Assembly (NCBI GenBank): GCA_016180645.1
Contig: JACPAV010000002.1
Location: forward strand, 174,628-238,627
Source of the DNA: Nitrospirota bacterium
Lineage (GTDB): Bacteria > JACPQY01
Direction of reading: 5' to 3'
DNA: 64,000 nucleotides
In this document: piece after piece, positions 15,294-48,290 of the stretch
How positions within the stretch are numbered: the stretch's first letter is position 1
How the letters are laid out: every line of letters begins with the position of its first letter
Translations under genes and position numbers: made by a program
Notes under the pieces: generated by a model
What the model was told of the DNA's origin: nothing
Databases searched by the model: none
What the model saw: the letters and a program-made list of their open reading frames with translations, nothing else

Positions 15294-15357
15294 GGCGCGA
15301 TCCTTGTTTCCAAGCACCCCTAAAGTCGCGGCCCCAGCGTCCGAACATCCCCCTATA

Positions 15358-15378: not shown

Positions 15379-15398
15379 AACTTTAGGCTCGGGCCGGC

Positions 15399-15426: not shown

Positions 15427-15449
15427 TTTCCCCCTGAAGGCACAGGGAA

Positions 15450-27144: not shown

Positions 27145-27759
27145 CTACAGCTGAATGACACAAATCCCTCCCTGTTCCAGCCCCTTGACCTGTTCCAGGA
27201 TCTCGTTCTTGCGCGCGAAGGAGGTGATGATCACGCCGTCCGGGCTCAGCTCCCTGATGGAATCCGGACGCGAGACCTTCCATTGCCCGAAGGATTGCCC
27301 CCATTTGCGTTCATCGTTGTCCACCACGCCAACAATCTCCACCGGAACGTTGCGAAGGGCCGCGCTGACCACTTCTCCCGTTTCCGAGGCCCCAAACAGA
27401 ACCACTCGGCGGATATGCCCGTTCAGATGTTTCTGTACCGCCCGCTGGATGGCGCCCTTGATGTACGAATAAGCCCGCACCAGCTCGACGGACGACTCCA
27501 TCAGAAAATTCATCCTGGCTTCGTTCCCCAGTGGAGTGACTTGGTACGTCATCCTCTTTCTTGAGAGTTCCTCCTTGGCAATCCACCCCTTCCGGATGCC
27601 TTCGTCGATGTAGTAATTGACTTGGGCGCTGGAGACGCCGACCAGTCCGGACAACTTGTGTTGGCTCAAGTTCGGATTCTCGCTGAGAAAATTCAGGAGA
27701 TAGAGCAACTTAAACTTGTGTGTGGGTTTCCAGCATGAGAAGCTGGAGAATTCTTTCAT
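27145..27759 (-). CDS. winged-helix transcriptional regulator with C-terminal Rossmann/CoA-binding-like domain (Rex-like architecture)
   Basis: N-terminal wHTH-like segment (LSQHKLSGLVGVSSAQVNYYI) and C-terminal RVVLFGASETGEVV...VGVVDNDERKWG. Start set to ATG (MKEFSSF) at 27759; first gene after the AT-rich gap. Confidence 0.45.
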   Translation of the reverse strand: MKEFSSFSCWKPTHKFKLLYLLNFLSENPNLSQHKLSGLVGVSSAQVNYYIDEGIRKGWIAKEELSRKRMTYQVTPLGNEARMNFLMESSVELVRAYSYIKGAIQRAVQKHLNGHIRRVVLFGASETGEVVSAALRNVPVEIVGVVDNDERKWGQSFGQWKVSRPDSIRELSPDGVIITSFARKNEILEQVKGLEQGGICVIQL

Positions 27760-27842
27760 GTCTATTCGCAATCCTTCCTTAGTTGCGGCCCTTTCGGCAC
27801 CGGGGATTATCCCCCGGATGCTATCCTTAGCAATTCCTTTGA

Positions 27843-31817: not shown

Positions 31818-32877
31818 ATCCGCCGCCCCTGAAGAGGGAGGCCTCCTTGAGAACGTCGCGCCATTGGGCGACGAAGCGGTCCATGGAAAACTGACTCTCA
31901 ACCGTCCGGCGCGCCTCCCCTCCCATCCTCGCCGCCTCTTCGGAAGAGTCGAGCAACTCGCGGAGGCGAGATCGTAGCGCGCCGACGTCCGACGTAATGT
32001 ATCCATTCACGCCGTTCCTGATCGGCGAGGACGTATTCCACGTCGAGAGGACCGGCGTGCCCGCGGCCATGGCCTCCAACATGCAAAGCGTGTACCCGTC
32101 CTCCAGCCCCTCCACGGTCGTGTTCACGAACAGACGCGCGCTTCGATAAATATCCTTCAGTTCATCGAACGACGAGGCCGATTCACTTTTCACGCCCTGG
32201 TCGTTATCCCCCACCACGCGGAGCGGAAATCCGTCGCAAATGGCCAGGAGGTCCCGCAGGCCCTCTTTCGCGCGGGAAAGGCCGTTGCACACCCTCAGCG
32301 CGCTCGCCACTTCGCCCGTGTGGTCGGGAAAATCGGAAATGTCGATGCCGTGCACAATCACGCGCGAGGGGCATCGCAGCCCCCAGTTCTTCCGCTTGAA
32401 CTCCGAGATAAAAACAAAGAAGACATTTCCGGATTTCAGGAAAAGCCTCTGCAGAGATCTCAGGAATTCCCGCTTCCGGAGGGCCTGGCCGAGAAGGTCC
32501 GTTTCGGAATAGGGGAACGCATTATGGAACACGAGCACTTTCCCGGAAGGGCTCGCGATGCACGCCAGGAGATCCTCCACATCGTGGCAAACGATCGCAT
32601 CATAGTAGGCGTCTCGGCTCCGTTCCTTCATGTCGCTCTCGGAGATCAGCCGGGCGTTGGGAGGAAGCGGGCGAAGTCGGGGATTCCACGCGCGCACGTA
32701 GCCCAAGCTGGGAATGTGCCGTTCGCAGATATCGAATTCGTGTCCCGTCCTTGCGAGGTTGCACAGATACGGTTCGTGCCGGCAGAAGGTCAGTATCCGG
32801 AGGGTTCGACGCGAGGCCCCGATGACGTTTCCATTCGTCGTCCCGGAAGCGAAGCGGAGGGGGCGCGTCGTACCCAT
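31810..32877 (-). CDS. glycosyltransferase, GT4-like
   Basis: CMLEAMAAGTPVLST motif. Start set to ATG (MGTTRPL) at 32877, adjacent to the upstream stop. Confidence 0.6.
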   Translation of the reverse strand: MGTTRPLRFASGTTNGNVIGASRRTLRILTFCRHEPYLCNLARTGHEFDICERHIPSLGYVRAWNPRLRPLPPNARLISESDMKERSRDAYYDAIVCHDVEDLLACIASPSGKVLVFHNAFPYSETDLLGQALRKREFLRSLQRLFLKSGNVFFVFISEFKRKNWGLRCPSRVIVHGIDISDFPDHTGEVASALRVCNGLSRAKEGLRDLLAICDGFPLRVVGDNDQGVKSESASSFDELKDIYRSARLFVNTTVEGLEDGYTLCMLEAMAAGTPVLSTWNTSSPIRNGVNGYITSDVGALRSRLRELLDSSEEAARMGGEARRTVESQFSMDRFVAQWRDVLKEASLFRGGGYA

Positions 32878-34204: not shown

Positions 34205-34225
34205 CCCCTCCTTACGAAGGAGGGG
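34205..34225 (-). other. intercistronic stem-loop CCCCTCCTT-ACG-AAGGAGGGG spanning the upstream stop codon
   Basis: Perfect 9-bp inverted repeat with 3-nt loop; contains the TAA stop of the 944-aa gene and lies about 15 nt upstream of the SD of the next gene; one arm is itself SD-like. Confidence 0.4.
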
Positions 34226-37319: not shown

Positions 37320-38003
37320 TCACTGTTCGATGCTCCTCACCAGCACGAATGCCTCTGCCGCGCCCAGCCCACAGTGGATGCCCCACTTCTTCGCATAAAC
37401 ACGCAACGATTCCGGCGACCGGGGATGGCCGTTGGCGCCGACCTCGCCCCGGTACTGCAAGAAGGCGTGAATCTTGGTTTCCAAAGTCCGGGAAATATCG
37501 CTGAAGGCGTTCGGCGTGAACGTGTTCTGCGCCCCGTAGATGTTCCACTCGGTCGAAGAGGGCGTTTCAAACGCGAAGATCCTTCTTACGGTTTCCCCGT
37601 GAATCGGCCGGAAGGCGGTCAACACAGCCTGATAGGTAATGCGGTGGTCCACGTTCAGGTCTCCCCAGAAATGGGTGTAGACGACTTCAGGGCGAAACTG
37701 TTTCTTGATCCGTTCAATGGTCTTGACCATGTCGAGGAGAGACATCGTATCGAAACGATTGTCGGGCAGGCCGAGGAAATGCACCCGCTCCACCCCCAGA
37801 ATGTCCGCGCTCCGGCGGCAGTACGTTCGAAGCGCCGAGACCAGCCGCTTGGGTGCGTGTTCCCGTCGTTCGAATCGCGCCGTGGCGCCTTCTCCCAGGA
37901 TGACCGTGTGGATCCGGTGCCCCTTGCGGGCCAGGCGGGCCATGGTGCCGCCGCAGCCAAGCACTTCATCATCCGGATGGGCGGCAACGACCAATACATT
38001 CAT
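37320..38003 (-). CDS. PIG-L/LmbE family N-acetyl-sugar deacetylase
   Basis: MNVLVVAAHPDDEVLGCGGT with the HPDDE zinc-binding motif; ATGA overlap with upstream gene; 227 aa. Confidence 0.7.
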   Translation of the reverse strand: MNVLVVAAHPDDEVLGCGGTMARLARKGHRIHTVILGEGATARFERREHAPKRLVSALRTYCRRSADILGVERVHFLGLPDNRFDTMSLLDMVKTIERIKKQFRPEVVYTHFWGDLNVDHRITYQAVLTAFRPIHGETVRRIFAFETPSSTEWNIYGAQNTFTPNAFSDISRTLETKIHAFLQYRGEVGANGHPRSPESLRVYAKKWGIHCGLGAAEAFVLVRSIEQ

Positions 38004-38752
38004 GCGGACACTCCCGATCGGATGATTTCCAGCGCCCGCGGACCCTCGTTGAGCATCAGATCGATGACAGACATGTTCGGAATGAAGGGATCGAAGCCTT
38101 GCCGATACGTAGGGTGCTGATAGTCTTGAAAAATAACCGCAATTTTCTCCCTATTGAAGGCCTCAAGGTCCATGTAGAGCCGTCCATGGGTACCCGCGTA
38201 GTATGTATCAGCTTGGAAATGCTTGCAGATCGAGACAAGCCGATGTGTGGCTAGTTCCTTTACATTCAATCGGTCGGTTGGACCGATTGAATCGGTCGAT
38301 CGGACCGATTCGATCGATCGATCGGTCAGTCTCAAGTCTGAACTCCTATACGTTCGAGGGGTAAGATTCATGCATCGAGAGACAACCTCGATAGACTTGA
38401 GACAGAGCAGGGACAGGTTCGAGCCTGACTCGGCGTAGATCGAACCGATGGGGGCTTCATACTCGGAGTAGAACGGGGCCTTCCTGTAGTTTGACTCGAT
38501 CGCTTTCAGGTGCTTCCGCCGCCAGGGCGAGCGCTCGTCCGTTTGGGTTTCGTTGATGGTTTGTCCGAAGTGGTGCTGGACCGGCACGGTGAGCCATTGC
38601 CATCCCTCGGCCGTGCGGATCTTGTTCCGGTTCTGCCAATCGTTCTTCGTGTATTGCACATCGTCGAGAAACACGAACACATCGGCACGGTCCATCTTCT
38701 CGAAATACCCGAGCCACGGGAGGTACTGCGGCTGGTGGATGGAGACGATCAT
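38000..38752 (-). CDS. WbqC-like family protein, paralog 1
   Basis: MIVSIHQPQYLPWLGYFEKMDRADVFVFLDDVQY matches the WbqC-like N-terminus. Start set to ATG at 38752 (ATGA overlap); carries an about 19-aa in-frame insertion relative to paralog 2. Confidence 0.65.
   Translation of the reverse strand: MIVSIHQPQYLPWLGYFEKMDRADVFVFLDDVQYTKNDWQNRNKIRTAEGWQWLTVPVQHHFGQTINETQTDERSPWRRKHLKAIESNYRKAPFYSEYEAPIGSIYAESGSNLSLLCLKSIEVVSRCMNLTPRTYRSSDLRLTDRSIESVRSTDSIGPTDRLNVKELATHRLVSICKHFQADTYYAGTHGRLYMDLEAFNREKIAVIFQDYQHPTYRQGFDPFIPNMSVIDLMLNEGPRALEIIRSGVSA
38265..38330. repeat. array of alternating-orientation 8-mers GACCGATT/AATCGGTC forming overlapping perfect palindromes, in frame inside WbqC-like paralog 1
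   Basis: CAATCGGTC-GGTTG-GACCGATTG, GACCGATT-G-AATCGGTC, AATCGGTC-GATCG-GACCGATT and GACCGA-TCGATCGATCGA-TCGGTC read directly; encodes TDRSIESVRSTDSIGPTDR. Confidence 0.7.
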
Positions 38753-40122
38753 GGGAGTGGCAAGTGGTGAGTGGCGAACGGCGAGTCGAGGGGGCCACGG
38801 CTCGGTTCTTTTGGCCCTTCGCTCGTCGCTCCTCGCTCGCTCCTCGTTGCTCGTTGCTCGTTGCTCGTTGCTGTCATGGCGTCCACCAACGCGCACACCC
38901 GGTCCGTGGCGCGTCCGTCGTTCAAGGCATTGAGGGTCAGGAGATCCGCCTCTCTCAACATCTCCTCCTCCATCGTCCTCGGTGCGCGAAGGGCCTCCAT
39001 GGTTTTCCGAAAGACCTCTTCCTCAGTGCGCGCTTTGAGGATCGAGGCCGCATCATTGAAGATCGTCTCCGGCACATGGAGCGAGAGCGACATAACCCGG
39101 GCGCCGTAGATCAGCGCCTCGACGGCCATCGTCGATTGAAAGCAAATCACCACGTCCGACGCCCTGAGCAGCGGCGCCAGCGCGGGCGCCAAGGAAAGGT
39201 GTCGCGGGTAGGTCGAGTGGACCCGGAGACCCTCGGCTTGAGCCAGCGCCTCATACTCTTTGTCCGCATAGGGATCGGAGGGATGGGGTTTCAAAACCAA
39301 CTGGAAGGCCCGGGCCTTTTGGGCCCGAGCGAGCGCGCGGAACGTATCGGCCATGACGTCTCCCGGCCGATAGGAATGCTCCCGGAGGTACAGACCGCTC
39401 CGCCACGTGGTGGCCAGACACACCACGGGGAGACCGCTCTGCAGCCCGATCTCGCGCAACGCCCTCGACTTCTCCCATTCGCCGCGGAGGCGGTAGTGCA
39501 GGTCCATGACGACCGATCCCGTGACGGCCAATCGATCTTCCGCCACGCCCGCCCGCCGGTACCAATTCCGGCAGCGCTCCCCGAACACAGACATGATGTC
39601 CGCATACACACGGTCATGCAGATTGGCCAGTCCGGGCAGCCCATGCGCGAGGCAGAGGCTGGGAACGCCATAGGCCCTCGCCAATTGAATCGCCACCCGC
39701 TGGAGGGGCCGGACGTCGTTGTCCACCATCAGCAGGCCCAATCCGCCCTCGACCGCCATTCTCTTGACGGCCACCGCAATGCCCAGCATCTGGCGGCTCA
39801 GGTTGGAGAACCGTGGCGCGAGACTCTCGTAGATTTTCACATCGGCGTATCCCCGCTCGGACAAGGCCGCCTCGAAGCCCATCGCCAAGCGGGCGCAGTC
39901 CTCCGGACTCTTCTCCAGGACGTAGCGGTCGATCGCCGCCAAGTCGCCCGGATCGAACAACGTCTCCAGGGAGGCCACGCTCCCCCCCCCCGATTTCCGG
40001 ATGAAATCGTAGGTCGTCGGGTTCACCACGAGGTCGTGCCGGGATGCCAATCTCCGGCAGAGGTGCTCATACCTCTGGTTCAGCAGCGCGAGAATTCGGA
40101 CCGGCACGTCAGGACCCTCCAT
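38749..40122 (-). CDS. TagF-like (CDP-glycerol glycerophosphotransferase-type, HP motif) putative transferase, paralog 1
   Basis: VVCLATTWRSG (PTWR-like) and QLVLKPHPSDP motifs; 457 aa. The C-terminal about 45 aa is encoded by heptamer arrays and may not be native; G10 tract near 5-prime end. Confidence 0.5.
   Translation of the reverse strand: MEGPDVPVRILALLNQRYEHLCRRLASRHDLVVNPTTYDFIRKSGGGSVASLETLFDPGDLAAIDRYVLEKSPEDCARLAMGFEAALSERGYADVKIYESLAPRFSNLSRQMLGIAVAVKRMAVEGGLGLLMVDNDVRPLQRVAIQLARAYGVPSLCLAHGLPGLANLHDRVYADIMSVFGERCRNWYRRAGVAEDRLAVTGSVVMDLHYRLRGEWEKSRALREIGLQSGLPVVCLATTWRSGLYLREHSYRPGDVMADTFRALARAQKARAFQLVLKPHPSDPYADKEYEALAQAEGLRVHSTYPRHLSLAPALAPLLRASDVVICFQSTMAVEALIYGARVMSLSLHVPETIFNDAASILKARTEEEVFRKTMEALRAPRTMEEEMLREADLLTLNALNDGRATDRVCALVDAMTATSNEQRATRSERGATSEGPKEPSRGPLDSPFATHHLPLP
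38755..38873. repeat. two heptanucleotide arrays (GAGTGGC-like x3-4 and GCTCGTT x4 exact plus degenerate copies) at the TagF-like/WbqC junction
   Basis: GCTCGTTGCTCGTTGCTCGTTGCTCGTT read directly at about 38847-38873; degenerate units extend upstream to about 38821; second array at about 38755-38790 directly upstream of the WbqC ATG. Confidence 0.7.
39982..39991. repeat. homopolymeric C10 tract (G10 on coding strand) in the 5-prime region of TagF-like paralog 1
   Basis: Read directly; encodes the GGG of IRKSGGGSVAS. Confidence 0.6.
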
Positions 40123-40351
40123 CCGGCGGGGAGAAGCGCGCCCCCAACTTCTCCATCGTCAACATGAAGATCTCGTACTCCAAGGCCCCCGCGAAGCTCT
40201 CCCCATCCCAGCGAAGGATGTCTTCCGCGGCTTCGCTCGCGCTCCATTCCGACAGCGCCGCGAGGACCTCCTGGTCGGTATGGCAGAGTTCACACACGGT
40301 GCCGTTCAGGCGCGACCCTCCAAGACCGCAGCGTTCGCACCTATCCTGCAT
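40109..40351 (-). CDS. small zinc-ribbon protein, paralog A
   Basis: MQDRCERCGLGGSRLNGTVCELC with two CxxC knuckles; 80 aa; lies between WbqC-like paralog 2 and TagF-like paralog 1. Confidence 0.4.
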   Translation of the reverse strand: MQDRCERCGLGGSRLNGTVCELCHTDQEVLAALSEWSASEAAEDILRWDGESFAGALEYEIFMLTMEKLGARFSPPDGGS

Positions 40352-41117
40352 GGCCTGCCGCCTCCCATGCGCTCTGCGTCGGGGCCCGACGCGCCTCAGA
40401 AGCCCGAAATGCGGGCCTCCGACCGGAACGAAGGATCTCCAGGCTCGCGGGACCGCAGTTCAGGAGCAGGTCCACCGCCGAGAGGTGTGAAACGAAGCCC
40501 TCGAATCGTTGGGGATAGACGGGGTGATCGTAGTGGTGGAAGCGCAATCGGACCCCCGAGTCCGAAAAGATTTCGGAATGTTGAAGATACGCTCGCGCGC
40601 CAAGCGGGGAGAGGTACTCATCCGCCCCCAGGCTCTCGCAAATGGAGACAAGGTAGTCCACCCGGTCCACTTGCTCCACGTCCAACTCGGAAGCCCGGAT
40701 GAACGGCGTGCGAATTCCCAACCGCGCCGCCAGCGCTTCCACAAGCGGAATCGTCACCTCCACCAAGCGGTCTTCCTCCGACCGTGCAAGCAGCGTGGAG
40801 AGAAGGGCATCGCCATGATCCCTCCACGACTCCGCGCGGCGATAGGCAACTTCGATCGATCGCGCGTGCCGGCGGATCCATTTCCCCTGAACGATCCTCG
40901 CCTCGCGGAGGGATTGGCCCAGCGGGTCCTTCCGCGTGAGCGGCAGCGTCAGCCAGCACCAGCCTTGGTCGGTTCGGATGCGGTTCCGGTGATGCCACGA
41001 ATGCCGCACGCGCTGCACCGTGTCCAGAAACACGAAGGTGTCGACCTGGTCGATCATGTCGAAATATCCAAGCCAGGGCAGGTAGTGCGGTTGGATGATG
41101 GCCACCGTCTTTCTCAT
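40341..41117 (-). CDS. WbqC-like family protein, paralog 2
   Basis: MRKTVAIIQPHYLPWLGYFDMIDQVDTFVFLDTVQ; start set to ATG at 41117. Confidence 0.65.
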   Translation of the reverse strand: MRKTVAIIQPHYLPWLGYFDMIDQVDTFVFLDTVQRVRHSWHHRNRIRTDQGWCWLTLPLTRKDPLGQSLREARIVQGKWIRRHARSIEVAYRRAESWRDHGDALLSTLLARSEEDRLVEVTIPLVEALAARLGIRTPFIRASELDVEQVDRVDYLVSICESLGADEYLSPLGARAYLQHSEIFSDSGVRLRFHHYDHPVYPQRFEGFVSHLSAVDLLLNCGPASLEILRSGRRPAFRASEARRAPTQSAWEAAGHAG

Positions 41118-41154: not shown

Positions 41155-41844
41155 CTATTTTCGCCCCTCCACCAGCCAGTCCGAATCGGTCCGACCCGGC
41201 GCGCTTCCCACCTTCGCATATCCGATAAACCGCTGACGAAACCCGGCCGTCAGCGCATCGACGGCCGCCGCGTCGACAAACGTCACCGACATCCCCTCCT
41301 CACCGGTCTCGTTCGAATTCATGAGAAAGCAATGGGGAGCCAGCTCCCGCCCCCGCCCGTATCGGGAGTCATCCGTTCCCCGCAACGAGAAGAAGGCCCA
41401 CCCCCCCGGTTTCAAGAGTCGACGAATTTCCATGATGCCCGCGGCGGTCTCCTCGGGCCTGCCGTAGTAGAGGACGCCATAGCAGATGACCGCATCGAAG
41501 GCGTCCGACTTGAGAGGCACGTCCAGGAAGGTGCCCACGGCCAGCCGCCCGGGACTCCTCTCCGTTCGGATGCATCGGCGCAGGGAACGTCTCGCTCCAT
41601 CGATCCCGACGACGTCGAATCCTTCTCTTTTCAGCATCACGAGGTGCCGTCCTCCGCCGCATCCGAGGTCCAGAACGCGCTTCGGCCGCCGACGATTCCA
41701 AGAGCGAACGAGCCTCCGAGATACGAACCGGACGACATGATCGACAGGGTAGCGGGGGACCTTGTCGAGATTCTCCCGCGCGTAGAAGATTTCCCAGGGA
41801 GTGCCGGTGTTGTTCCTCTCTTGAACCGGTGTGGCGATCCCCAT
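41155..41844 (-). CDS. class I SAM-dependent methyltransferase
   Basis: RVLDLGCGGGRH motif I and DAVICYGVLYY; start set to ATG (MGIATPV) at 41844. Confidence 0.6.
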   Translation of the reverse strand: MGIATPVQERNNTGTPWEIFYARENLDKVPRYPVDHVVRFVSRRLVRSWNRRRPKRVLDLGCGGGRHLVMLKREGFDVVGIDGARRSLRRCIRTERSPGRLAVGTFLDVPLKSDAFDAVICYGVLYYGRPEETAAGIMEIRRLLKPGGWAFFSLRGTDDSRYGRGRELAPHCFLMNSNETGEEGMSVTFVDAAAVDALTAGFRQRFIGYAKVGSAPGRTDSDWLVEGRK

Positions 41845-41855: not shown

Positions 41856-42941
41856 TCAGCGGGCGGAATTCGGTCCCGTCATGCGGAGCCCTATCCGGAG
41901 CAGCCCGCTGATCCTCGCCACCGACTTGGGCGGGAGGGCAGGATAAACGGGGATCGAAAGCGTCGTCTCGACCACCTTCTCGGCTTGGGAAAAACCTGCC
42001 GGATCCTGGCCAAGATATCGGTGGAGGAGTTCGAACCTCCGAATGGGAACCACGGTTTTCACGCCGCGGGTCTCGAGCCATTTTCTCAGGCGGTCCACCC
42101 GCCGGGACGGCGCGCGCAGCACGTACCGATAGAAGGTGGAACGGGTCCCGGCCGTTTCGAAGGGTCCGTGGGTATCGCTTCCCAACGGCAATGCCCGCAA
42201 GTAGAGGGAAGCGGCGCGGCGCCGGCGGCGGATCATCTCGGGGAGCTTGCGAAGCTGCACGCGCCCCACGGCCGCCGCGACGTCTGTCATCGCATAGTTG
42301 TATCTTACCTTGTAGGTCGGCCGCTGGTCGTAATCCCGAAGGTCTCGCGCCTGCTCAGCCCATTCCTTTCTTCGGGTAACCAGCATCCCGCCGTGACCCG
42401 TGGTCATCATCTTGGTGGCATGGAAGGAGAAGATGGAGATGTCGCCCGTAATCCCGACCCGGCGACCGCCGATCTCCGCCCCGATGGCCTGGGCACAATC
42501 TTCGATGACCGGAACGCCGAGCCGACGCACGGCATGAATGCCGGCGGGGAATCCAAACAGGTGCGGTACCACCACGACTTTCGTCCGGCGACGCAGCTTC
42601 TTCTCCACGTGATCGGCGGTCAGGTTGAAATCGCGGTCATTCACGTCGACCAGGACCGGCTTCGCGCCCACGTAGAACGCCGCGTTGAGGAGAGCTGAAC
42701 ACACGTAGGTGGGCATGATGACTTCGTCCCCACGGCCCACCCCCAGAATCTGCAACGCCAAGTGAAGCGCAGCGCTCCCACTGCTCAGAGCGACACCGTG
42801 ACAGCCCTTCCCAATCCAAGACGCAAGCTCCCGTTCAAAGGCCGCCACCTCCGGCCCGGGGGCGGGCCAGCGACGCAGAATGACCCGTCGGACGGCGTCG
42901 GCCTCTTCCTTCCCGATCCAAGGTTGATTGTGGGGAATCAT
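41856..42941 (-). CDS. pseC: DegT/DnrJ/EryC1/StrS-family PLP-dependent sugar aminotransferase (PseC-like)
   Basis: FSFHATKMMTTGHGGM contains the PLP-lysine region; context with PseB/PseI/PseG-like genes supports PseC; 361 aa. Confidence 0.7.
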   Translation of the reverse strand: MIPHNQPWIGKEEADAVRRVILRRWPAPGPEVAAFERELASWIGKGCHGVALSSGSAALHLALQILGVGRGDEVIMPTYVCSALLNAAFYVGAKPVLVDVNDRDFNLTADHVEKKLRRRTKVVVVPHLFGFPAGIHAVRRLGVPVIEDCAQAIGAEIGGRRVGITGDISIFSFHATKMMTTGHGGMLVTRRKEWAEQARDLRDYDQRPTYKVRYNYAMTDVAAAVGRVQLRKLPEMIRRRRRAASLYLRALPLGSDTHGPFETAGTRSTFYRYVLRAPSRRVDRLRKWLETRGVKTVVPIRRFELLHRYLGQDPAGFSQAEKVVETTLSIPVYPALPPKSVARISGLLRIGLRMTGPNSAR

Positions 42942-43005
42942 CCTGCGTATAACAGGTAACAGTATACTTTATGAGGATCAACCCGTAGGCTAATAAAGTA
43001 TACTG

Positions 43006-43704
43006 TCACCTGTTATACTCCTCGTAGACTTCGAGCCGCAGGTAGTAACGCTTTCCGTTCACCTCGACGAATGCATTGTCATACGGCGGAAACGTGAGGG
43101 CCCGGAGCCGATTGATGAGATCGGCGCCCCGATACGTTCGATCCAAATCAATTCGCATCAGCTCCCAGAACTCCTGATCCCGATGGTAGGTGCCCTCGCC
43201 GGAAGAAACGTCCAGCGGATTCCCCTCCCCGGATCGAATCAAGGGCCAGTGCTCCCGGAAGAGGTCGAATCCGGCGGCCTCAAGTTTCTCGTAGAGAGAT
43301 TTCCCCGTGTCGCTGAATTCAACCGCCACGCGACGTCGAGCGAAGATCGGCCCGCTGTCCACGCGACGGACCATCTTGTGAATGGAAACGCCCGCCGGCG
43401 TATTGTCGAGGATGCTCCACGCGTTGGTGTAAGTCCCCCGATTATGCGGCAGGTAGGACGTGTGCACATTGATGCATCCCAGCGGTGGCATCTCCAGATA
43501 CTTGGGCGGCACGAGAAATCGGAATCCGCAACTCACCACCAGGTCGGGCCTGAGTCGGCGGAGAAGAGGCAGTTGTTCCCGGCGCGTCAATACACAGGCA
43601 ATCTGCTCCCCTTGCTCCGCCAGCCAGCCGAGAATTCGGCTCCCGAGCCCGTTCAGGCCCAGAAAAACAAGAGTGGGGCCGGATTTGGGAGACGGACTAC
43701 GCAT
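43006..43704 (-). CDS. formyltransferase (Fmt/ArnA N-domain family)
   Basis: VVSCGFRFLVPPKYLEMPPLGCINVHTSYLPHNRG matches the formyl-transferase HxSLLPxxRG region; start set to ATG (MRSPSPK) at 43704. Confidence 0.6.
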   Translation of the reverse strand: MRSPSPKSGPTLVFLGLNGLGSRILGWLAEQGEQIACVLTRREQLPLLRRLRPDLVVSCGFRFLVPPKYLEMPPLGCINVHTSYLPHNRGTYTNAWSILDNTPAGVSIHKMVRRVDSGPIFARRRVAVEFSDTGKSLYEKLEAAGFDLFREHWPLIRSGEGNPLDVSSGEGTYHRDQEFWELMRIDLDRTYRGADLINRLRALTFPPYDNAFVEVNGKRYYLRLEVYEEYNR

Positions 43705-44716
43705 GACCGGCCACCCCGGAGGAAGTCTCCAGATGTTCGGCCACCCGTTCGACCCCACGGCCGTCCAGCCGGAACCGACCTGTCTCGCTGATCCTTCTTC
43801 GCAGCGTCGCCGATCGAACAAGTTCATCCAGCCGTTCCGGCACCGAGTTTTCATTGCCGGCGCGAAGCGCCAGACCTTGCTTGTCCATCGCATCCAGGAA
43901 AATGGAATGGCCCGGCGTGGGATCGACCAATACGGCGGGCACGCCCATGGTAGCCAGCTCGTACATCGTTACGCCGACTGCTCCCACGGCCGCGTCTGCC
44001 CGCAGGACGAGAGGAACGATGGAGACCACATTTCGGATCGTCTTCACATTTCCGGGAAGGCTCCGATCCCGATTCAGAGTCCCGCGATAACCGGGGCCCA
44101 GGAGGGATACAAATCGGACGCGCGCAAAGCGCCGGGCCAGTACCGGCACGAGCCGGCCTGCCATGTCCTGCGGGTCGCTCCCCCCGAAGGTCACCAGCAC
44201 CTGCCGCACGTTTTTTCGCAGACGATAACGAGGTCGAGCCCGCGCCCACTGGGGCTTCAGCAGGGCATATCGAAGACCCATCAATCGAACTTGACGGCGT
44301 TTGCGCACGATTTCATCGCGCCAGAGCACGTGGCCGTTTACCAGAACATCGGCCGGCGTACAGTCCGCGTCCCAGTCGTCGATCACCACCAATCGCCCGA
44401 CCTTCTCGCCCCACGCACTCAGGAGCCTCTCGTCCCTCCGGGGAATGTCAACGACCAAAGTCTCCACCCGGTCCCGTCGGATCGCGGCGCCCAGCGAGGT
44501 CTGGTTCCTCAGCCGGGTGAAGCGCGGAGCGGCCGCGGCAAAGAACCGTGCGGCCAGAAGGTCATGCTCCGAATAGAAACGAACCCCTCGGCCCCGCCGG
44601 ACACACACCTCCGCAAGGGCCAGCGCGCGCGAAACGTGTCCGAATCCTATGCGCGGCCCGGCCTGGACGTAGAAGCCCAGGGTCCCTCCGCGCGCGTCAT
44701 CGGCTGAGAATCGCAT
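43697..44716 (-). CDS. PseG-like UDP-sugar hydrolase (MurG-like GT-B fold)
   Basis: N-terminal GFGHVSRALALAE (GxGHxxR) typical of PseG; C-terminal GT28-like domain; 339 aa. Confidence 0.6.
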   Translation of the reverse strand: MRFSADDARGGTLGFYVQAGPRIGFGHVSRALALAEVCVRRGRGVRFYSEHDLLAARFFAAAAPRFTRLRNQTSLGAAIRRDRVETLVVDIPRRDERLLSAWGEKVGRLVVIDDWDADCTPADVLVNGHVLWRDEIVRKRRQVRLMGLRYALLKPQWARARPRYRLRKNVRQVLVTFGGSDPQDMAGRLVPVLARRFARVRFVSLLGPGYRGTLNRDRSLPGNVKTIRNVVSIVPLVLRADAAVGAVGVTMYELATMGVPAVLVDPTPGHSIFLDAMDKQGLALRAGNENSVPERLDELVRSATLRRRISETGRFRLDGRGVERVAEHLETSSGVAGHA

Positions 44717-45389
44717 CGAACATGTATGGGGTTTGCCAGGGGGAACCGCTCAGTTTCTGAACGTGGACGGTGAAGCCGGCGCTCTGGCCCGCCTCCGTGA
44801 ACTCCTGCCGGTGGAACCACAGCGCCCGTCGATTTCGATCCCGGATGTGTTCCTTCGTGGAGTCATCGGCGCCCAGCCGGTCGATGCCTTCGAAGTAGGC
44901 GTCCCTCTTTTCGGCGTCGAGAATCCATCCCGCCCAAAGCGCCCCGCCCCGCCGGATGACCTGCGCCAGTCCAAGGAAAACCCGGCGTACGTCGTCGAAT
45001 CCGTCCAGACATTGGAGCACACCCACGAGGAGCACCTTTGTGAACATGGGCTGCCGGAGAGGAAGTTGTCGCACATCGGCGGCAAAAAGATGAACATTGC
45101 GCGACCCGTTCTGCATGGCACGGGCCTGTGACAACATCGAGGGGATGAGGTCACAGGCCCATATCTCCCTAACCCACGGGGCAAGCGCGAGAGCGATGAG
45201 CCCATTCGCGCACCCTGCATCTAGAACGACATCCTGGCGATCAACCTTCAGTCCGCGGGCAATGCCCGCAACCATGTGCAAGAATTCCGATGGCCTGTTC
45301 GACGGCCGGCCGCCGACCGCCAGCTCACTGGGCAGCGCCGATCGCTCCGTCCAGTGCTCTTTCCAGAAGTGATTCTCCATCCCCCCCAT
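44697..45389 (-). CDS. class I SAM-dependent methyltransferase
   Basis: VVLDAGCANGLI motif I; begins ATG-GGGGGGG-ATG, a G7 tract immediately after the start codon. Confidence 0.6.
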   Translation of the reverse strand: MGGMENHFWKEHWTERSALPSELAVGGRPSNRPSEFLHMVAGIARGLKVDRQDVVLDAGCANGLIALALAPWVREIWACDLIPSMLSQARAMQNGSRNVHLFAADVRQLPLRQPMFTKVLLVGVLQCLDGFDDVRRVFLGLAQVIRRGGALWAGWILDAEKRDAYFEGIDRLGADDSTKEHIRDRNRRALWFHRQEFTEAGQSAGFTVHVQKLSGSPWQTPYMFDAILSR

Positions 45390-45398
45390 TGCGATAGC

Positions 45399-46220
45399 CT
45401 ACGCCCGCGCTTCCTCGAACGGGCTCCCCACGGTCCGACCCGCCGGCGTCACCTTGTACACCATCTTCAACCGCGTATGTCGGACATCCCGGTTCAAGTC
45501 CCGCACCTCGGGGTGTGCATCCAGCCATCGGATCGCCTCGACCGCATCCACCGGCCGACCTGGCTCGTAGAGGGCATCGAACACCCCGCGCAGAACCTCG
45601 TAGTCCTGGCCTCGATCCAGCGTCAGTCTCACATCGCCGCGGGCCAGTTCCGGCGTCCGTGCCGGCAAATTCGTCACGCTGAACGTTTCGGGATTCTCCA
45701 GGATCAAGCTGGTCACATGCTCCCGATGCTGGGGCTGGAGGTCGAACTTTTCCTGAGCCAGCAAGGCCTCCCGGCGGATGACTTCCCCTCCCAAACCGAG
45801 GGCCGCCCCGCGGGAAAGCGTTTCGTACCCCGTGTCACCGCAATTATGGGTGTAGTCCGCTCCCGACTTGAGGTGATGCTCCACACAGAGGTCCAGACCG
45901 GGTACGTCGATCAATGGGCAATCGCTCGTAACCCGCACGATGTGGTCTGCCGCAAATCTTTCCGCCGCGCGCGTGTATCGCCCAAGCACGTTGAGCTCTC
46001 CCCCCATCACAATCGGCCAGCCGCGCAGACCGGCGAGCGCGCGAAGGGGTCTGTCGCGATCGACACCGGTGGTCGCCAAGACCGCCGCATCGAGGGTCCG
46101 CGAAGCCGCAAGCCGCTCAAAAATGTGTTCGACGACGGACTTCCTCGCCAGGGGCAAAATCACCTTTCCCGGCAGACGGGTGCTCCCCATCCGCGCTTGT
46201 ACCACCGCCACCACCTTCAT
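45399..46220 (-). CDS. cytidylyltransferase-domain protein (SpsF/PseF-like)
   Basis: MKVVAVVQARMGSTRLPGKVI N-terminal motif of the SpsF-type CTP-transferase family; 273 aa. Confidence 0.6.
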   Translation of the reverse strand: MKVVAVVQARMGSTRLPGKVILPLARKSVVEHIFERLAASRTLDAAVLATTGVDRDRPLRALAGLRGWPIVMGGELNVLGRYTRAAERFAADHIVRVTSDCPLIDVPGLDLCVEHHLKSGADYTHNCGDTGYETLSRGAALGLGGEVIRREALLAQEKFDLQPQHREHVTSLILENPETFSVTNLPARTPELARGDVRLTLDRGQDYEVLRGVFDALYEPGRPVDAVEAIRWLDAHPEVRDLNRDVRHTRLKMVYKVTPAGRTVGSPFEEARA

Positions 46221-46224
46221 TCCG

Positions 46225-47277
46225 TCACTCCAAATCCGAGAGATGAACCAAGTCGTCCGGAAGAATGGCGCGTCTCGATCGTCGCCCGATCACCTTGCCC
46301 ACCTCCGAGGGGGAAAGTCCCGTTCCCGGACGCTTCAACGCGATCATGTCGCGGCCGATGACCATCCCCGGATCGATGGCCACGCGAGCGACAATGCTTC
46401 GCCGGCAGAGTTTCTTCATGTCCTGCTCCTCCGGACCGGGAGCGATGCGGCCTCCGCCGAGCATAAGTTCGGTTTGGCGTACCGCCTTGACCAAGGCCCG
46501 CAGCTCCGACGGATCGCAGGAGAAGGCGTGGTCCGGCCCGGCGAGCGACTTGTCCAGTGTGAAATGCTTCTCGATCATCACCGCGCCCAGGGCCGTGGCG
46601 AGGCGCGCCGCCTCGATGCCTTCCGTATGGTCCGAATAACCGACCGGGTAGGGAAAGAGCCGTCGCAGGCCGGAGATCCTTCGCATGTTGCAGGCCAGGT
46701 CGGGCGTGGGGTAGAGGGACACGCAGTGAAGGAGGACGATCTGCGAATTGCGGCTCGAACGCACGGCGCGGATGGCGTCGCGGATCTCCGCTTCGGAAGC
46801 CATGCCCGTCGAAAGGATCATGGGCAGCCTGAACCGGGCCAGATCCTTGAGGAGGGGGAGATTCGTCAGATCGTCCGATCCGACTTTGACGCACGGAACC
46901 TCCGTTTCAATCAGGGCTTCGACGGCATCCACGCTCGAAGGCGTGGAGAAAAACAGGACCCCCGCATGATCCGCCTCCGCCTTCAGGTCCGCCAGAAGCG
47001 GCAATGGAAGCTCATACCGGCGGAACATCTCGCGCATGGATTCAGTGATGGTGTTTCCCTTGGACACATACGTGTAGGTCGTGCCGCCATCCCCCACGAA
47101 ATCGTCCGCAAAAAAAGTCTGAAACTTTACCGCATCGACTCCACACTCCGCAGCTGTGCGGATCATCGCTTTGGCGGTTTCGGGGTCACCGTTGTGGTTG
47201 ATGCCGACCTCGGCCACGATGAGCGTCGGCTGCCCGCGGCCGATCAGCCGGTTCCCCAGCGCCACAGTGGTCTTCAT
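46225..47277 (-). CDS. pseI: NeuB-family nonulosonate (pseudaminic-acid-type) synthase
   Basis: LIVAEVGINHNGD and SAF-like domain; start set to ATG (MKTTVALG) at 47277 overlapping the PseB stop (ATGA). Confidence 0.7.
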   Translation of the reverse strand: MKTTVALGNRLIGRGQPTLIVAEVGINHNGDPETAKAMIRTAAECGVDAVKFQTFFADDFVGDGGTTYTYVSKGNTITESMREMFRRYELPLPLLADLKAEADHAGVLFFSTPSSVDAVEALIETEVPCVKVGSDDLTNLPLLKDLARFRLPMILSTGMASEAEIRDAIRAVRSSRNSQIVLLHCVSLYPTPDLACNMRRISGLRRLFPYPVGYSDHTEGIEAARLATALGAVMIEKHFTLDKSLAGPDHAFSCDPSELRALVKAVRQTELMLGGGRIAPGPEEQDMKKLCRRSIVARVAIDPGMVIGRDMIALKRPGTGLSPSEVGKVIGRRSRRAILPDDLVHLSDLE

Positions 47278-48290
47278 GTCACCCGTGCCTCCATTTCCAC
47301 GTTCTGACTCTTCCCGTTTGCGCGGGAGGCCACGAAAGTTTTCATCTCCTCCGCCTTCAGCCACCACTCATTGGTGTTGCTCGCATAACGGAAATCGTCG
47401 GGCAGCAGCCGCCCCTCGCGGGTTCGCTCCGGGTTCCACCATGGGAACTCCGGCTCTACCACGAAGTAGGAATCAAACTCGCGGGCGTGGCGGGCTTCAT
47501 CCTCGGTGAGAAGCACTTCGTGAAGTTTCTCGCCGGGGCGGACCCCCACTTCGGAAATTTGGGCTTCGGGCGCCACGCTGCGCGCCAGGTCAAGCACCTG
47601 CATGCTTGGAATTTTCGGCACAAAGATTTCCCCGCCCTTCATCCGTTCCAGGCATTCAAGGACGAATTGCGCGGCGCGGTCCAACGTGATCCAGAACCGC
47701 GTCATGCGCCGGTCCGTGATCGTCAAGACCCCCTTCATCCTTTGCAGTAGGAATAACGGGAGAACGCTTCCACGACTGCCAACCACGTTCCCATACCGGA
47801 CAACGGAAAACCGCGTTCCCCCCTGCCCGCCGTACGAGTTCCCTTGGATGAAGATTTTCTCCAGACAAAGTTTCGTCGCGCCGTAGAGATTCACCGGGTT
47901 GACCGCCTTGTCCGTGCTCAGGGCCACCACTTTCTTTACGCCACAATCGATGGCGGCCTCCATGACGTTCTCGGCGCCGAGGATGTTCGTCTTGACGGCC
48001 TCGAAAGGGTTGTATTCGCAAGCGGGGACCTGCTTGAGGGCGGCGGCGTGAATCACGAAGTCCACCCCCTCCATGGCGCGACGCAGCCGGTCCACGTCGC
48101 GGACATCTCCGAGCAGGAACCGCAGGGCCGGATGAGCCAGCTGCCGTCCCATGTCGTGTTGTTTGAGCTCGTCCCGGCTGAGGATGCGAACGGCCTTGGG
48201 AGGACCCGCCCTCAGGAGGAGTTGGGCAAACTCCCTTCCGAAGGAACCCGTTCCCCCGGTCACGAGAAAAGTGGTGTCATCCAGATTCAT
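47274..48290 (-). CDS. pseB: UDP-N-acetylglucosamine 4,6-dehydratase (inverting), PseB/FlaA1 family
   Basis: FLVTGGTGSFG, SRDELKQ, HAAALKQVPACEYNP, YGATKLC, TDRRMTRFWITLD, GGEIFVPKIPSM all match the PseB/FlaA1 family; 338 aa. Confidence 0.85.
   Translation of the reverse strand: MNLDDTTFLVTGGTGSFGREFAQLLLRAGPPKAVRILSRDELKQHDMGRQLAHPALRFLLGDVRDVDRLRRAMEGVDFVIHAAALKQVPACEYNPFEAVKTNILGAENVMEAAIDCGVKKVVALSTDKAVNPVNLYGATKLCLEKIFIQGNSYGGQGGTRFSVVRYGNVVGSRGSVLPLFLLQRMKGVLTITDRRMTRFWITLDRAAQFVLECLERMKGGEIFVPKIPSMQVLDLARSVAPEAQISEVGVRPGEKLHEVLLTEDEARHAREFDSYFVVEPEFPWWNPERTREGRLLPDDFRYASNTNEWWLKAEEMKTFVASRANGKSQNVEMEARVT

What the first reader, a model, noticed from the sequence alone, without database searches (positions are those of the whole stretch)
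41856..48290. Pseudaminic-acid-type pathway lacking an acetyltransferase but containing a formyltransferase and two methyltransferases
PseB, PseC, PseG-like, NeuB/PseI and a cytidylyltransferase are present in operon order, but no GNAT (PseH-type) gene was recognised. A formyltransferase (HxSLLPxxRG-like motif) and two class I methyltransferases are interleaved instead. Established knowledge: N-formyl pseudaminic acid derivatives occur in some bacterial polysaccharides. The cluster may therefore make an N-formylated and/or methylated nonulosonate rather than Pse5Ac7Ac.
Basis: partly seen in the sequence, partly recalled or inferred. Interest (0 to 1): 0.5.

Follow-up and report, generated by a model that had tools for sequence, protein, structure and literature searches.

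The report
Formyl-for-acetyl swap in nonulosonate operon
A bacterial operon for a pseudaminic-acid-like surface sugar carries a sugar formyltransferase in the gene slot where related operons carry an acetyltransferase, so it probably makes an N-formylated sugar; this kind of pathway is already known.

Summary
On the minus strand, 48290-41155 is one tight operon: PseB, NeuB-family synthase, cytidylyltransferase, methyltransferase MT1, PseG-like hydrolase, sugar N-formyltransferase (FT), DegT aminotransferase, methyltransferase MT2.

No GNAT or hexapeptide acetyltransferase was found anywhere in the 64-kb window. The FT is a sugar-type enzyme, not an Fmt paralog.

The strongest evidence is comparative. 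Two orthologous metagenomic operons (L086, L087) keep the same genes in the same order but have a hexapeptide acyltransferase where the window has the FT. A closer relative (L088) has the FT. MT1, MT2 and WbqC are kept in both variants, so the methyltransferases are not tied to formylation.

The likely product is a 7-N-formyl, Pse-type nonulosonate. Downstream genes (two WbqC, a PIG-L deacetylase, methyltransferases) probably tailor it, and Maf proteins probably transfer it to flagellin.

This is not new in kind. PseJ already explains Pse5Ac7Fo. Formyltransferases sit in the Halorubrum and Kuenenia nonulosonate clusters. Methyltransferases and deacetylases inside pse clusters have been reported. 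Here the FT is a different lineage from PseJ.

One side lead: WbqC models as a BshC-like fold and recurs next to PIG-L.

The parts
47274..48290 (-). PseB, UDP-GlcNAc inverting 4,6-dehydratase (338 aa). First gene of the operon.
   Evidence: TIGR03589 scores 474 bits against a cut-off of 407.75; Pfam Polysacc_synt_2 scores 331 bits. It is 77% identical to the L086 ortholog.
46225..47277 (-). NeuB-family nonulosonate synthase (350 aa from the internal ATG), with a SAF domain.
   Evidence: Pfam NeuB scores 270 bits. NCBIfam NeuB_NnaB scores 350 (cut-off 400) and PseI scores 271 (cut-off 340). PDB matches: SpsE 187 bits, PseI 8h2c 156 bits, NmNeuB 156 bits. Its start overlaps the PseB stop codon.
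45399..46220 (-). Cytidylyltransferase (273 aa). No PseF (TIGR03584) match. Presumed CMP-nonulosonate synthetase.
   Evidence: CTP_transf_3 scores 64 bits and there is no TIGR03584 (PseF) hit. It is 60% identical to the L086 and L087 orthologs. The CT of L003 gives the same kind of hits.
44697..45389 (-). MT1, class I SAM-dependent methyltransferase (230 aa). Substrate unknown.
   Evidence: Methyltransf_11 and Methyltransf_25 hits. It does not match TIGR03587. Only 3 close homologues were found, all in syntenic operons. About 90 representative clusters match at E<=1e-10 among 1.8 billion.
43697..44716 (-). PseG-like protein (339 aa). Presumed UDP-sugar hydrolase.
   Evidence: TIGR03590 gives E 2.6e-27 and 96 bits (cut-off 153.55), covering model positions 5-267 of 280. 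There is no Pfam hit. It is 78% identical to L088 and 48-49% identical to L086 and L087.
43006..43704 (-). Sugar N-formyltransferase (232 aa). The catalytic Asn79-His81 motif lies at 43470-43435 and Asp116 at 43359-43357.
   Evidence: Formyl_trans_N scores 62 bits and N_formyltrans_C 55 bits. NF005755 (dTDP-4-amino-4,6-dideoxyglucose FT) scores 116 bits. PDB matches: Rv3404c 93 bits, PseJ 87 bits, WbkC 86 bits. N79, H81 and D116 are invariant in alignment A1. The sequence is identical to an NCBI 'MAG: Nitrospirae bacterium' formyl transferase.
42949..43016 (-). AT-rich hairpin with 22-nt arms (21 of 22 paired). It covers the FT stop codon and the FT-DegT spacer.
   Evidence: The repeat is unique in the window. 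The RNA fold is -32.8 kcal/mol with z -7.5. It matches no Rfam family. It is absent at the same junction in L086, L087 and L088.
41856..42941 (-). DegT-family PLP aminotransferase (361 aa), PseC-like.
   Evidence: DegT_DnrJ_EryC1 scores 275 bits. NCBIfam: PseC 203 (cut-off 423.5), LegC 184, ArnB 178. It is 84% identical to L088 and 60-63% identical to L086 and L087.
41155..41844 (-). MT2, class I SAM-dependent methyltransferase (229 aa from the internal ATG).
   Evidence: Methyltransf_25 and Methyltransf_11 score about 60 bits; the DVU_1556 family scores 57 bits (cut-off 155). It is 42-45% identical to the gene in the same position in L086 and L087. PDB matches are generic small-molecule and N-methyltransferases.
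40341..41117 (-). WbqC-family protein a (258 aa).
   Evidence: PF08889 scores 220 bits. A WbqC also follows MT2 in L087.
38749..40122 (-). Weak match to the BFO_1060 and TIGR04396 'surface carbohydrate' families (457 aa). Candidate nonulosonate transferase.
   Evidence: NF046086 scores 47 bits and TIGR04396 34 bits, both below their cut-offs. The BFO_1060 family includes the Tannerella Pse/Leg-derivative transferase (PMC5420450).
38000..38752 (-). WbqC-family protein b (250 aa). Predicted BshC-like, class I aaRS-like fold.
37320..38003 (-). PIG-L/LmbE-family de-N-acetylase (227 aa).
   Evidence: PF02585 scores 100 bits. The best NCBIfam hits are BshB1, BshB2, Mca and MshB. Homologues (38-55% identical) occur in 16 of 85 FT loci.
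34212..37046 (-). 944-aa multidomain protein: a BFO_1060/TagB-like GT region, a class I methyltransferase and TPR repeats.
   Evidence: Capsule_synth, Glyphos_transf, Methyltransf_23 (75 bits) and TPR hits; NF046086 scores 48.5 bits.
28121..32006 (-). Two Maf (motility accessory factor) paralogs, 32006-29949 and 30052-28121. They mark the region as a flagellin glycosylation island.
   Evidence: MptE-like scores 96 bits and Maf_flag10_N 40 bits for the first; Maf_flag10_N scores 22 bits (cut-off 23.5) for the second. The first also gives a PseD domain hit of 85 bits.

Best explanation
The region is the front end of a roughly 48-kb glycosylation island, probably for flagellin, in a Nitrospirota MAG.

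Proposed pathway, shown only as sequence homology:
1. PseB converts UDP-GlcNAc to the 4-keto-6-deoxy-L sugar.
2. The DegT enzyme aminates C4.
3. The formyltransferase transfers formyl from N10-formyl-tetrahydrofolate to that 4-amino group. In the canonical pathway this step is done by PseH. In orthologous operons of this type it is presumably done by a hexapeptide acyltransferase.
4. The PseG-like enzyme removes UDP.
5. The NeuB-family synthase condenses the product with PEP.
6. The cytidylyltransferase activates the product.

The inferred result is a CMP-linked 5-acetamido-7-formamido nonulosonate of the pseudaminic type (Pse5Ac7Fo-like).

The further steps are speculative. MT1 and MT2 may methylate the sugar or its substituents. 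The PIG-L deacetylase may remove the N5 acetyl group. The WbqC proteins may re-acylate that amine. The Maf proteins and the BFO_1060-like proteins would then transfer the sugar.
For: Gene identities and tight spacing, with overlaps or gaps of 64 nt or less, come.

The FT is sugar-type. It has an N_formyltrans_C domain. The Asn-His-Asp triad is invariant. Its top PDB hits all act on NDP-4-amino-4,6-dideoxyhexoses: Rv3404c, PseJ and WbkC.

Slot equivalence. L086 and L087 have orthologs of PseB (77% identical, L086 only; the L087 contig starts at NeuB), NeuB (70-71%), CT (60%), MT1 (57-63%), PseG-like (48-49%), DegT (60-63%) and MT2 (42-45%) in the same order. A 154- or 169-aa hexapeptide acyltransferase sits between the PseG-like gene and DegT. 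L088 has PseG-like (78%), FT (75%) and DegT (84%) in that order.

No other N-acyltransferase was found in 64 kb.

Linkage is recurrent. Among 85 loci around FT homologues, 45 have a PseB-like gene, 40 a NeuB, 51 a DegT and 26 a PseG-like gene. In many, the FT lies directly between PseG and NeuB. L003 has PseB, PseC and PseG all above their cut-offs, plus an FT and no PseH in the ~20 kb read around the FT.

Literature. PseJ makes the Pse5Ac7Fo precursor and PseF accepts Pse5Ac7Fo (PMC11040635). C. jejuni PseI accepts the 4-formamido sugar (PMC13576459). Kuenenia CMP-nonulosonates are formylated, carry a free amine and carry +14 Da, and its cluster encodes a deacetylase and a formyltransferase (bioRxiv 10.64898/2026.04.20.719630).
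Against: - Only PseB passes its equivalog threshold. The DegT, PseG-like, NeuB and CT proteins are divergent. NeuB scores higher against NeuB_NnaB than against PseI. The stereochemistry (Pse versus another isomer) is therefore not established.
- The hexapeptide protein of L086 and L087 cannot be assigned as an N- rather than an O-acetyltransferase from sequence. The slot equivalence is positional evidence only.
- Some FT loci (L040, L058) also carry a PseH-like GNAT. FTs of this clade therefore do not always replace the acetyltransferase.
- A PIG-L deacetylase is present. Halorubrum, whose FT belongs to the nearest clade, makes a 5-N-formyl sugar, so the position of the formyl group is open.
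- No flagellin gene lies in the window.
Confidence: 0.62

Rival explanations
1. The formyl group goes to N5, not N7. [quoted passage not shown] N7 would then stay free or be acylated by a WbqC protein.
For: - The nearest large FT clade is haloarchaeal.
- Halorubrum sp. PV6 makes 5-N-formyl-Leg, and its cluster encodes a predicted FT (PMC6137143).
- PIG-L homologues co-occur with the FT in 16 of 85 loci, often adjacent to it.
- A PIG-L gene lies in this island.
Against: - In the window the FT lies between the PseG-like gene and DegT, and PIG-L lies 5 kb downstream beside a WbqC gene.
- In L086 and L087 an acyltransferase fills the FT slot, which fits the step on the 4-amino group.
- Many FT loci have no PIG-L, for example L003, L037 and L040.
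- The structurally characterised relatives act on 4-amino-4,6-dideoxy NDP-sugars.
- Without an N4 acyl donor the PseG and PseI steps would have to handle a free amine.
Confidence: 0.15
2. The FT modifies a different sugar of the glycan, for example a 4-amino-4,6-dideoxyhexose such as Qui4N or perosamine, and is only a passenger in the operon. The nonulosonate would get its second acyl group from an enzyme encoded elsewhere.
For: - The best NCBIfam hit is a dTDP-4-amino-4,6-dideoxyglucose FT, and the best PDB hit is Rv3404c.
- Some FT homologues sit in loci without nonulosonate genes, for example L005 and several of L060-L085.
- L040 and L058 have both a PseH-like GNAT and an FT.
Against: - The FT gene is coupled to the PseG-like gene by an 8-nt overlap.
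- No RmlA/RmlB or GDP-mannose dehydratase genes turned up in the scans of the window.
- The FT slot is filled by an acyltransferase in orthologous operons.
- All hits to named FT families are far below their cut-offs.
Confidence: 0.1
3. The FT is a methionyl-tRNA formyltransferase paralog with no activity on sugars. This is the refutation case named by the first reader.
For: JGI and NCBI name many homologues 'methionyl-tRNA formyltransferase'. TIGR00460 gives a partial hit of 89 bits.
Against: - The Fmt score of 89 bits is far below the cut-off of 201.5.
- The protein is 232 aa, compared with about 315 aa for Fmt.
- Its C-terminus is the sugar-FT dimerisation domain N_formyltrans_C, not the tRNA-binding Formyl_trans_C.
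- Its genomic context is a sugar operon.
Confidence: 0.02

Closest known systems
PseJ of Anoxybacillus kamchatkensis (PDB 6ci2, 6ci4), the formyltransferase of the Pse5Ac7Fo pathway
   Same: Both are sugar N-formyltransferases encoded within a pse-type cluster. Both are proposed to formylate the 4-amino group of the UDP-sugar in place of PseH. The N-terminal catalytic domains are homologous (87 bits).
   Different: They are not orthologs. The match covers only residues 53-177. It is no better than the matches to Rv3404c (93 bits) or WbkC (86 bits). The window FT has a C-terminal N_formyltrans_C domain, while the match to PseJ ends at the end of the catalytic domain. The host here is Nitrospirota and the setting is an island that encodes Maf proteins.
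Canonical CMP-pseudaminic acid pathway (PseB, PseC, PseH, PseG, PseI, PseF) of Helicobacter and Campylobacter
   Same: The first enzyme is the same (PseB passes its equivalog cut-off). The sequence of steps is the same: dehydratase, aminotransferase, N-acylation, UDP hydrolysis, PEP condensation and CMP activation.
   Different: There is no PseH. The PseC-, PseG- and PseI-like proteins score below their equivalog thresholds. The cytidylyltransferase does not match PseF (TIGR03584). The gene order is different. Two methyltransferases are embedded in the operon.
Nonulosonate cluster of Ca. Kuenenia stuttgartiensis (SugarBase preprint, 2026)
   Same: The cluster combines a formyltransferase and a deacetylase. 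Mass spectrometry shows CMP-nonulosonates with one formylated amine, one free amine and +14 Da consistent with a methyl group. This matches the FT, PIG-L and methyltransferase set found here.
   Different: That cluster is described as Leg-type (legB, legC, legG homologs). Its sequence relationship to this window was not tested. No WbqC was mentioned there.
Halorubrum sp. PV6 legionaminic acid cluster with the predicted FT HrrPV6_1050
   Same: Haloarchaeal FTs are the nearest large clade to this FT, at 43-50% identity. They sit in nonulosonate clusters.
   Different: The Halorubrum product is 5-N-formyl-Leg, and its cluster also has NeuD/LegH acetyltransferases (PMC6137143). The window has a PseB-type first step and no acetyltransferase.
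BshB/BshC and MshB/MshC deacetylase-ligase pairs of bacillithiol and mycothiol synthesis
   Different: There is no detectable sequence similarity. Foldseek found no significant match. The substrate here would be an amino sugar or nonulosonate, not GlcN-malate or GlcN-inositol. Activity is untested.

Membership tests
CMP-pseudaminic acid pathway | PseB, the inverting UDP-GlcNAc 4,6-dehydratase | tested here: met
   TIGR03589 scores 474.2 bits against a cut-off of 407.75.
CMP-pseudaminic acid pathway | PseC aminotransferase (equivalog) | tested here: inconclusive
   PseC is the best NCBIfam hit, but at 203 bits against a cut-off of 423.5. LegC scores 184 and ArnB 178. The protein is clearly a DegT family member.
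CMP-pseudaminic acid pathway | PseH, the GNAT N-acetyltransferase | tested here: not met
   No GNAT or hexapeptide acyltransferase is present in the 64-kb window.
CMP-pseudaminic acid pathway | PseG, the UDP-sugar hydrolase | tested here: inconclusive
   TIGR03590 gives E 2.6e-27 and 96 bits, below the cut-off of 153.55. There is no Pfam hit.
CMP-pseudaminic acid pathway | PseI synthase (equivalog) | tested here: not met
   PseI scores 271 bits against a cut-off of 340. NeuB_NnaB scores higher, 350 against a cut-off of 400. The L003 synthase shows the same pattern although its PseB, PseC and PseG pass.
CMP-pseudaminic acid pathway | PseF cytidylyltransferase (equivalog) | tested here: not met
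   The core CT gives no TIGR03584 hit; CTP_transf_3 scores 64 bits. Two PseF-like paralogs lie elsewhere in the window, at 130 and 113 bits, both below the cut-off of 206.
Sugar N-formyltransferases (Rv3404c, WbkC, VioF, PseJ type) | Formyl_trans_N catalytic domain with the Asn-His-Asp triad | tested here: met
   PF00551 scores 62 bits. N79, H81 and D116 are invariant across 24 homologues and align with Rv3404c.
Sugar N-formyltransferases (Rv3404c, WbkC, VioF, PseJ type) | C-terminal sugar-FT dimerisation domain | tested here: met
   PF18216 N_formyltrans_C scores 55 bits against a cut-off of 25.8.
Sugar N-formyltransferases (Rv3404c, WbkC, VioF, PseJ type) | Formylation of an NDP-4-amino-4,6-dideoxyhexose using N10-formyl-THF | not testable with these tools
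   This needs an enzyme assay.
PseJ orthologs | Closer to PseJ than to other sugar FTs, with the same architecture | tested here: not met
   PseJ scores 87 bits over residues 53-177 only. Rv3404c scores 93 bits over residues 53-226.
Methionyl-tRNA formyltransferase (Fmt) | TIGR00460 equivalog score and a tRNA-binding C-terminal domain | tested here: not met
   The score is 88.9 bits against a cut-off of 201.5. There is no Formyl_trans_C domain.
TIGR03587, pseudaminic acid biosynthesis-associated methylase | Match to TIGR03587 | tested here: not met
   TIGR03587 is not among the hits listed for MT1 or MT2 (all 24 families for MT1, the best 25 of 30 for MT2). The methyltransferase of L003 does match, at 195 bits against a cut-off of 112.
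Maf-type flagellin glycosylation island | Maf glycosyltransferase together with a nonulosonate pathway and flagellin genes | tested here: inconclusive
   Two Maf paralogs and the nonulosonate genes are present. No flagellin gene was found in the window.
BshC-like ligases (as a model for WbqC) | Fold similarity and pairing with an LmbE-family deacetylase | tested here: inconclusive

The most novel reading that the evidence does not exclude
The downstream genes may form a deacetylase-ligase tailoring module, analogous to BshB/BshC and MshB/MshC.

- PIG-L would strip the N5 acetyl group from the 7-N-formyl nonulosonate.
- The two WbqC proteins, predicted to have a BshC-like, class I aaRS-like fold, would ligate an amino acid or another acid to the freed amine in an ATP-dependent reaction.
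- MT2 or MT1 would methylate the new substituent.

The product would be a 7-N-formyl-5-N-(methyl-aminoacyl) nonulosonate. If this is right, it would assign a biochemical function to the large uncharacterised WbqC family (PF08889), which has more than 7,500 hits.
Probability: 0.25. Interest if true: 0.6.

Novelty: new variant of a known kind. Interest (0 to 1): 0.35.

Why it matters
N-acyl groups on nonulosonic acids help determine surface charge and recognition by antibodies, phages and host receptors, and most of the enzymes that install them are unknown.

This locus adds three things:
- a second, non-PseJ lineage of formyltransferase linked to pse-type pathways, found widely in bacteria and haloarchaea;
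- a natural pair of orthologous operons that differ by an acetyltransferase-for-formyltransferase swap, which is a clean system for testing substrate tolerance of the downstream enzymes;
- a testable lead for the function of the WbqC family.

None of this overturns current understanding.

Tried and rejected
- **Hidden acetyltransferase.** I looked with Pfam and NCBIfam scans of all plausible genes, an inventory of unassigned gaps, and local GNAT and hexapeptide HMMs against all six-frame ORFs. Nothing was found.
- **WbqC as the missing acyl-CoA acyltransferase.** Rejected. Its model has a class I aaRS-like fold resembling BshC, not a GNAT fold.
- **MT1 or MT2 as the known Pse-associated methylase TIGR03587.** Rejected. 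MT1, MT2 and the L003 methylase share only generic class I similarity.
- **Methyltransferases linked to the FT.** Rejected. No MT1 or MT2 homologue occurs in the 85 FT loci, and both are kept in the acyltransferase variants L086 and L087.
- **N- versus O-acetyltransferase for the hexapeptide protein of L086 and L087.** Tested by NCBIfam and PDB sequence searches. Only generic weak hits came back, so this is unresolved.
- **Typing the synthase as PseI, LegI or NeuB.** Scores are roughly equidistant from the solved synthases, so this is unresolved.
- **The FT-DegT hairpin.** Checked against Rfam. Only sub-threshold miRNA-like matches appeared, which are the sort of weak match a plain hairpin gives.
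- **Literature on WbqC.** The search returned nothing relevant.
- **Foldseek of the WbqC model against PDB.** No significant hit.

Full report
**What is there**

The window has about 62% G+C. Nearly all genes from about 48.3 kb down to 0.25 kb run on the minus strand. The finding covers the first eight genes of that run.

In order of transcription they are:
- PseB, 48290-47274
- a NeuB-family synthase, 47277-46225
- a CTP_transf_3 cytidylyltransferase (CT), 46220-45399
- a class I methyltransferase, MT1, 45389-44697
- a PseG-like protein, 44716-43697
- a formyltransferase (FT), 43704-43006
- a DegT aminotransferase, 42941-41856
- a second class I methyltransferase, MT2, 41844-41155

Neighbouring genes overlap or are separated by at most 64 nt, and G+C and GC3 are uniform across them. 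They therefore look like a single operon. A MerR-family gene lies directly upstream.

Its gene order is not, and MT2 lies just outside the stated coordinates.

Only PseB reaches its curated equivalog score (474 bits against a cut-off of 408). The others fall short:
- The aminotransferase scores 203 against a cut-off of 424 for PseC.
- The PseG-like protein scores 96 against a cut-off of 154.
- The synthase scores 271 against a cut-off of 340 for PseI. It scores higher against NeuB_NnaB, at 350 against a cut-off of 400.
- The cytidylyltransferase gives no PseF hit at all.

**Is an acetyltransferase really missing?**

I scanned every plausible gene of the 64-kb window with Pfam and, for most, NCBIfam. 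No GNAT and no hexapeptide-repeat acyltransferase appeared.

The only unassigned stretches of 450 bp or more lie outside the island. The smaller gaps hold a NusG paralog and a winged-helix protein.

I also built local HMMs from PseH-like GNATs and from hexapeptide acyltransferases found in related loci. Against 595 six-frame ORFs of the window their best E-values were 1.4 and 0.3. The absence therefore holds for the whole window, though not necessarily for the whole genome.

**What kind of formyltransferase is it?**

The 232-aa protein is identical to an NCBI entry from a Nitrospirae MAG. It has a Formyl_trans_N domain and the sugar-FT dimerisation domain N_formyltrans_C.

Its best NCBIfam hit is a dTDP-4-amino-4,6-dideoxyglucose formyltransferase. 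The Fmt model scores 89 bits against a cut-off of 201.5.

Its best matches among solved structures are Rv3404c (93 bits), PseJ (87 bits) and the GDP-perosamine formyltransferase WbkC (86 bits). All three act on NDP-4-amino-4,6-dideoxyhexoses.

Asn79, His81 and Asp116 are invariant across 24 homologues. This rules out an Fmt paralog.

The FT is also not a PseJ ortholog. The PseJ match covers only the catalytic domain and is no stronger than the matches to other sugar FTs.

**Comparative evidence: the slot swap**

MT1 has only three close homologues in the 5.8-billion-protein collection. Two of them lie on contigs L086 and L087, which carry orthologous operons.

The shared genes are PseB (77% identical; present only on L086, since the L087 contig starts at NeuB), NeuB (70-71%), CT (60%), MT1 (57-63%), PseG-like (48-49%), DegT (60-63%) and MT2 (42-45%). 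In L087 a WbqC gene follows. The gene order matches the window. Between the PseG-like gene and DegT, however, these contigs have a 154- or 169-aa hexapeptide-repeat acyltransferase instead of the FT.

A closer relative, L088, has PseG-like (78%), FT (75%) and DegT (84%) in that order.

The run accession numbers suggest that the two variants co-occur in related samples: the L087 contig and the contigs carrying the window's own FT have accessions in one numeric series (SRR121134xx), and L086 and L088 in another (SRR2238xxxx).

This is the best evidence that the FT does the job of the pathway's N-acyltransferase. It also shows that MT1, MT2 and WbqC belong to this operon type whichever acyl donor is used.

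One caveat applies. Sequence alone cannot tell whether the hexapeptide protein is an N- or an O-acetyltransferase.

**Wider distribution of the FT clade**

The FT clade is common in haloarchaea, at 43-50% identity, and in many bacterial phyla.

I examined 85 loci around FT homologues:
- 45 have a PseB-like gene
- 51 have a DegT gene
- 40 have a NeuB gene
- 26 have a PseG-like gene
- 21 have the same type of CT
- 16 have a PIG-L deacetylase
- none has MT1, MT2 or a Maf gene

In many bacterial loci the order is PseB, PseC..., CT, PseG, FT, NeuB.

L003 is the clearest comparison. Its PseB (511 bits), PseC (488 bits) and PseG (162 bits) all pass their cut-offs. It has the known Pse-associated methylase TIGR03587 (195 bits). 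It has an FT and no PseH in the ~20 kb read around the FT. Its synthase and CT show the same atypical scores as those in the window. Those atypical scores therefore do not argue against a Pse-type pathway.

Some loci (L040, L058) have both a PseH-like GNAT and the FT, together with an oxidoreductase and a class III aminotransferase. Within this clade, then, the FT does not always replace the acetyltransferase.

**Literature**

- PseJ is cited as the enzyme that completes the Pse5Ac7Fo pathway, and PseF accepts Pse5Ac7Fo (PMC11040635).
- C. jejuni PseI converts the 4-formamido altrose to Pse5Ac7Fm (PMC13576459).
[quoted passage not shown] - A 2026 preprint reports CMP-nonulosonates in Ca. Kuenenia with one formylated amine, one free amine and +14 Da. 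The cluster it links to them encodes a deacetylase and a formyltransferase.
- Methyltransferases and deacetylases interleaved with pse genes are described for Aeromonas and Clostridium flagellin glycosylation islands (PMC7874193 and PMC13317340).

**Surroundings**

Downstream of MT2, in order, lie:
- WbqC-a
- a protein with weak similarity to the BFO_1060 family, which includes the Tannerella nonulosonate transferase (PMC5420450)
- WbqC-b
- a PIG-L deacetylase
- a 944-aa protein with GT-like, methyltransferase and TPR regions
- two GT1-like genes
- two Maf paralogs

Further downstream lie a second NeuB fused to a TIM-barrel domain, more glycosyltransferases, three more cytidylyltransferases and two B12-radical SAM enzymes. 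This is a large glycosylation island. The Maf genes point to flagellin as the target, but no flagellin gene lies in the window.

**WbqC**

The WbqC family has no characterised member and no sequence match in the PDB.

Foldseek found no significant match, although its weak hits were mostly tyrosyl-tRNA synthetases.

The best NCBIfam hits of the PIG-L protein are BshB1, BshB2, Mca and MshB.

A PIG-L gene lies next to WbqC in the window, L093 and L094, one gene away in L051, and in the same locus in L092.

Together these suggest a deacetylate-then-ligate module like BshB/BshC or MshB/MshC. This is an inference from fold and gene neighbourhood only.

**Verdict**

The most likely product is a 7-N-formyl nonulosonate of the pseudaminic type, further tailored downstream. 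The position of the formyl group and the stereochemistry remain inferred.

The finding is a new variant of a known kind. It combines a non-PseJ FT lineage, a distinct operon architecture and a natural acetyl/formyl swap. Interest is moderate to low.

Noticed in passing
window 42949-43016 (minus strand): An AT-rich inverted repeat with 22-nt arms (21 of 22 paired) covers the FT stop codon and the 64-nt spacer before DegT. It folds at -32.8 kcal/mol (z -7.5). It is unique in the window and matches no Rfam family. It is absent at the same junction in L086, L087 and L088, where the two genes abut or overlap. It could be a scar of the gene swap or an mRNA processing or stability element.
   Followed up: partly
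window 38000-38752 and 40341-41117 (WbqC), 37320-38003 (PIG-L); also L051, L092, L093, L094: WbqC (PF08889, function unknown) models as a BshC-like, class I aaRS-like fold. A PIG-L/LmbE deacetylase lies next to it or in the same locus in unrelated loci. Some homologues are tandem double-WbqC fusions of about 490-520 aa (P0121-P0124). This suggests a deacetylase-ligase pair that acts on amino sugars.
   Followed up: partly
window 25153-27099 (minus strand): A second NeuB-family synthase (NeuB_NnaB 351 bits) is fused at its C-terminus to a xylose-isomerase-like TIM barrel (AP_endonuc_2, 95 bits). This points to a second nonulosonate pathway in the same island.
   Followed up: no
window 255-16211: The distal part of the island encodes a KdsB-like cytidylyltransferase (4797-5582), two PseF-like cytidylyltransferases (255-1061; 15450-16211 on the plus strand), an HpcH aldolase, a transaldolase, a SIS-domain protein, two SDRs, two GFO oxidoreductases, two B12-binding radical SAM enzymes (2100-3701, 10780-12342) and FkbM-type methyltransferases. 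Together these look like a pathway for another, possibly C-methylated or longer-chain, ulosonic acid.
   Followed up: no
window 4118-4624 (minus strand): A NusG paralog (PF02357, 62 bits) is embedded in the glycosylation island. Its place inside a long glycan operon raises the possibility of an RfaH-like antiterminator; this was not tested.
   Followed up: no
window 34212-37046 (minus strand): A 944-aa protein combines a TagB/BFO_1060-like glycosyltransferase region, a class I methyltransferase domain and C-terminal TPR repeats. It is a candidate transferase or modifier for the nonulosonate or its protein target.
   Followed up: no
L009, L021, L052 and other FT loci: Many FT loci carry a second, distantly related FT-like gene, for example L052:11833-12519 with a Formyl_trans_C_2 domain. 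It often lies beside a PIG-L gene. L040 and L058 combine a PseH-like GNAT, a GFO oxidoreductase and a CT fused to a class III aminotransferase with the FT.
   Followed up: partly
window 27145-27771 (minus strand): A 208-aa protein with a winged-helix domain and a Rossmann-like domain (HTH_24, with weak Methyltransf_14 and PglD_N hits) sits between the Maf genes and the second NeuB. It may be a local regulator.
   Followed up: no
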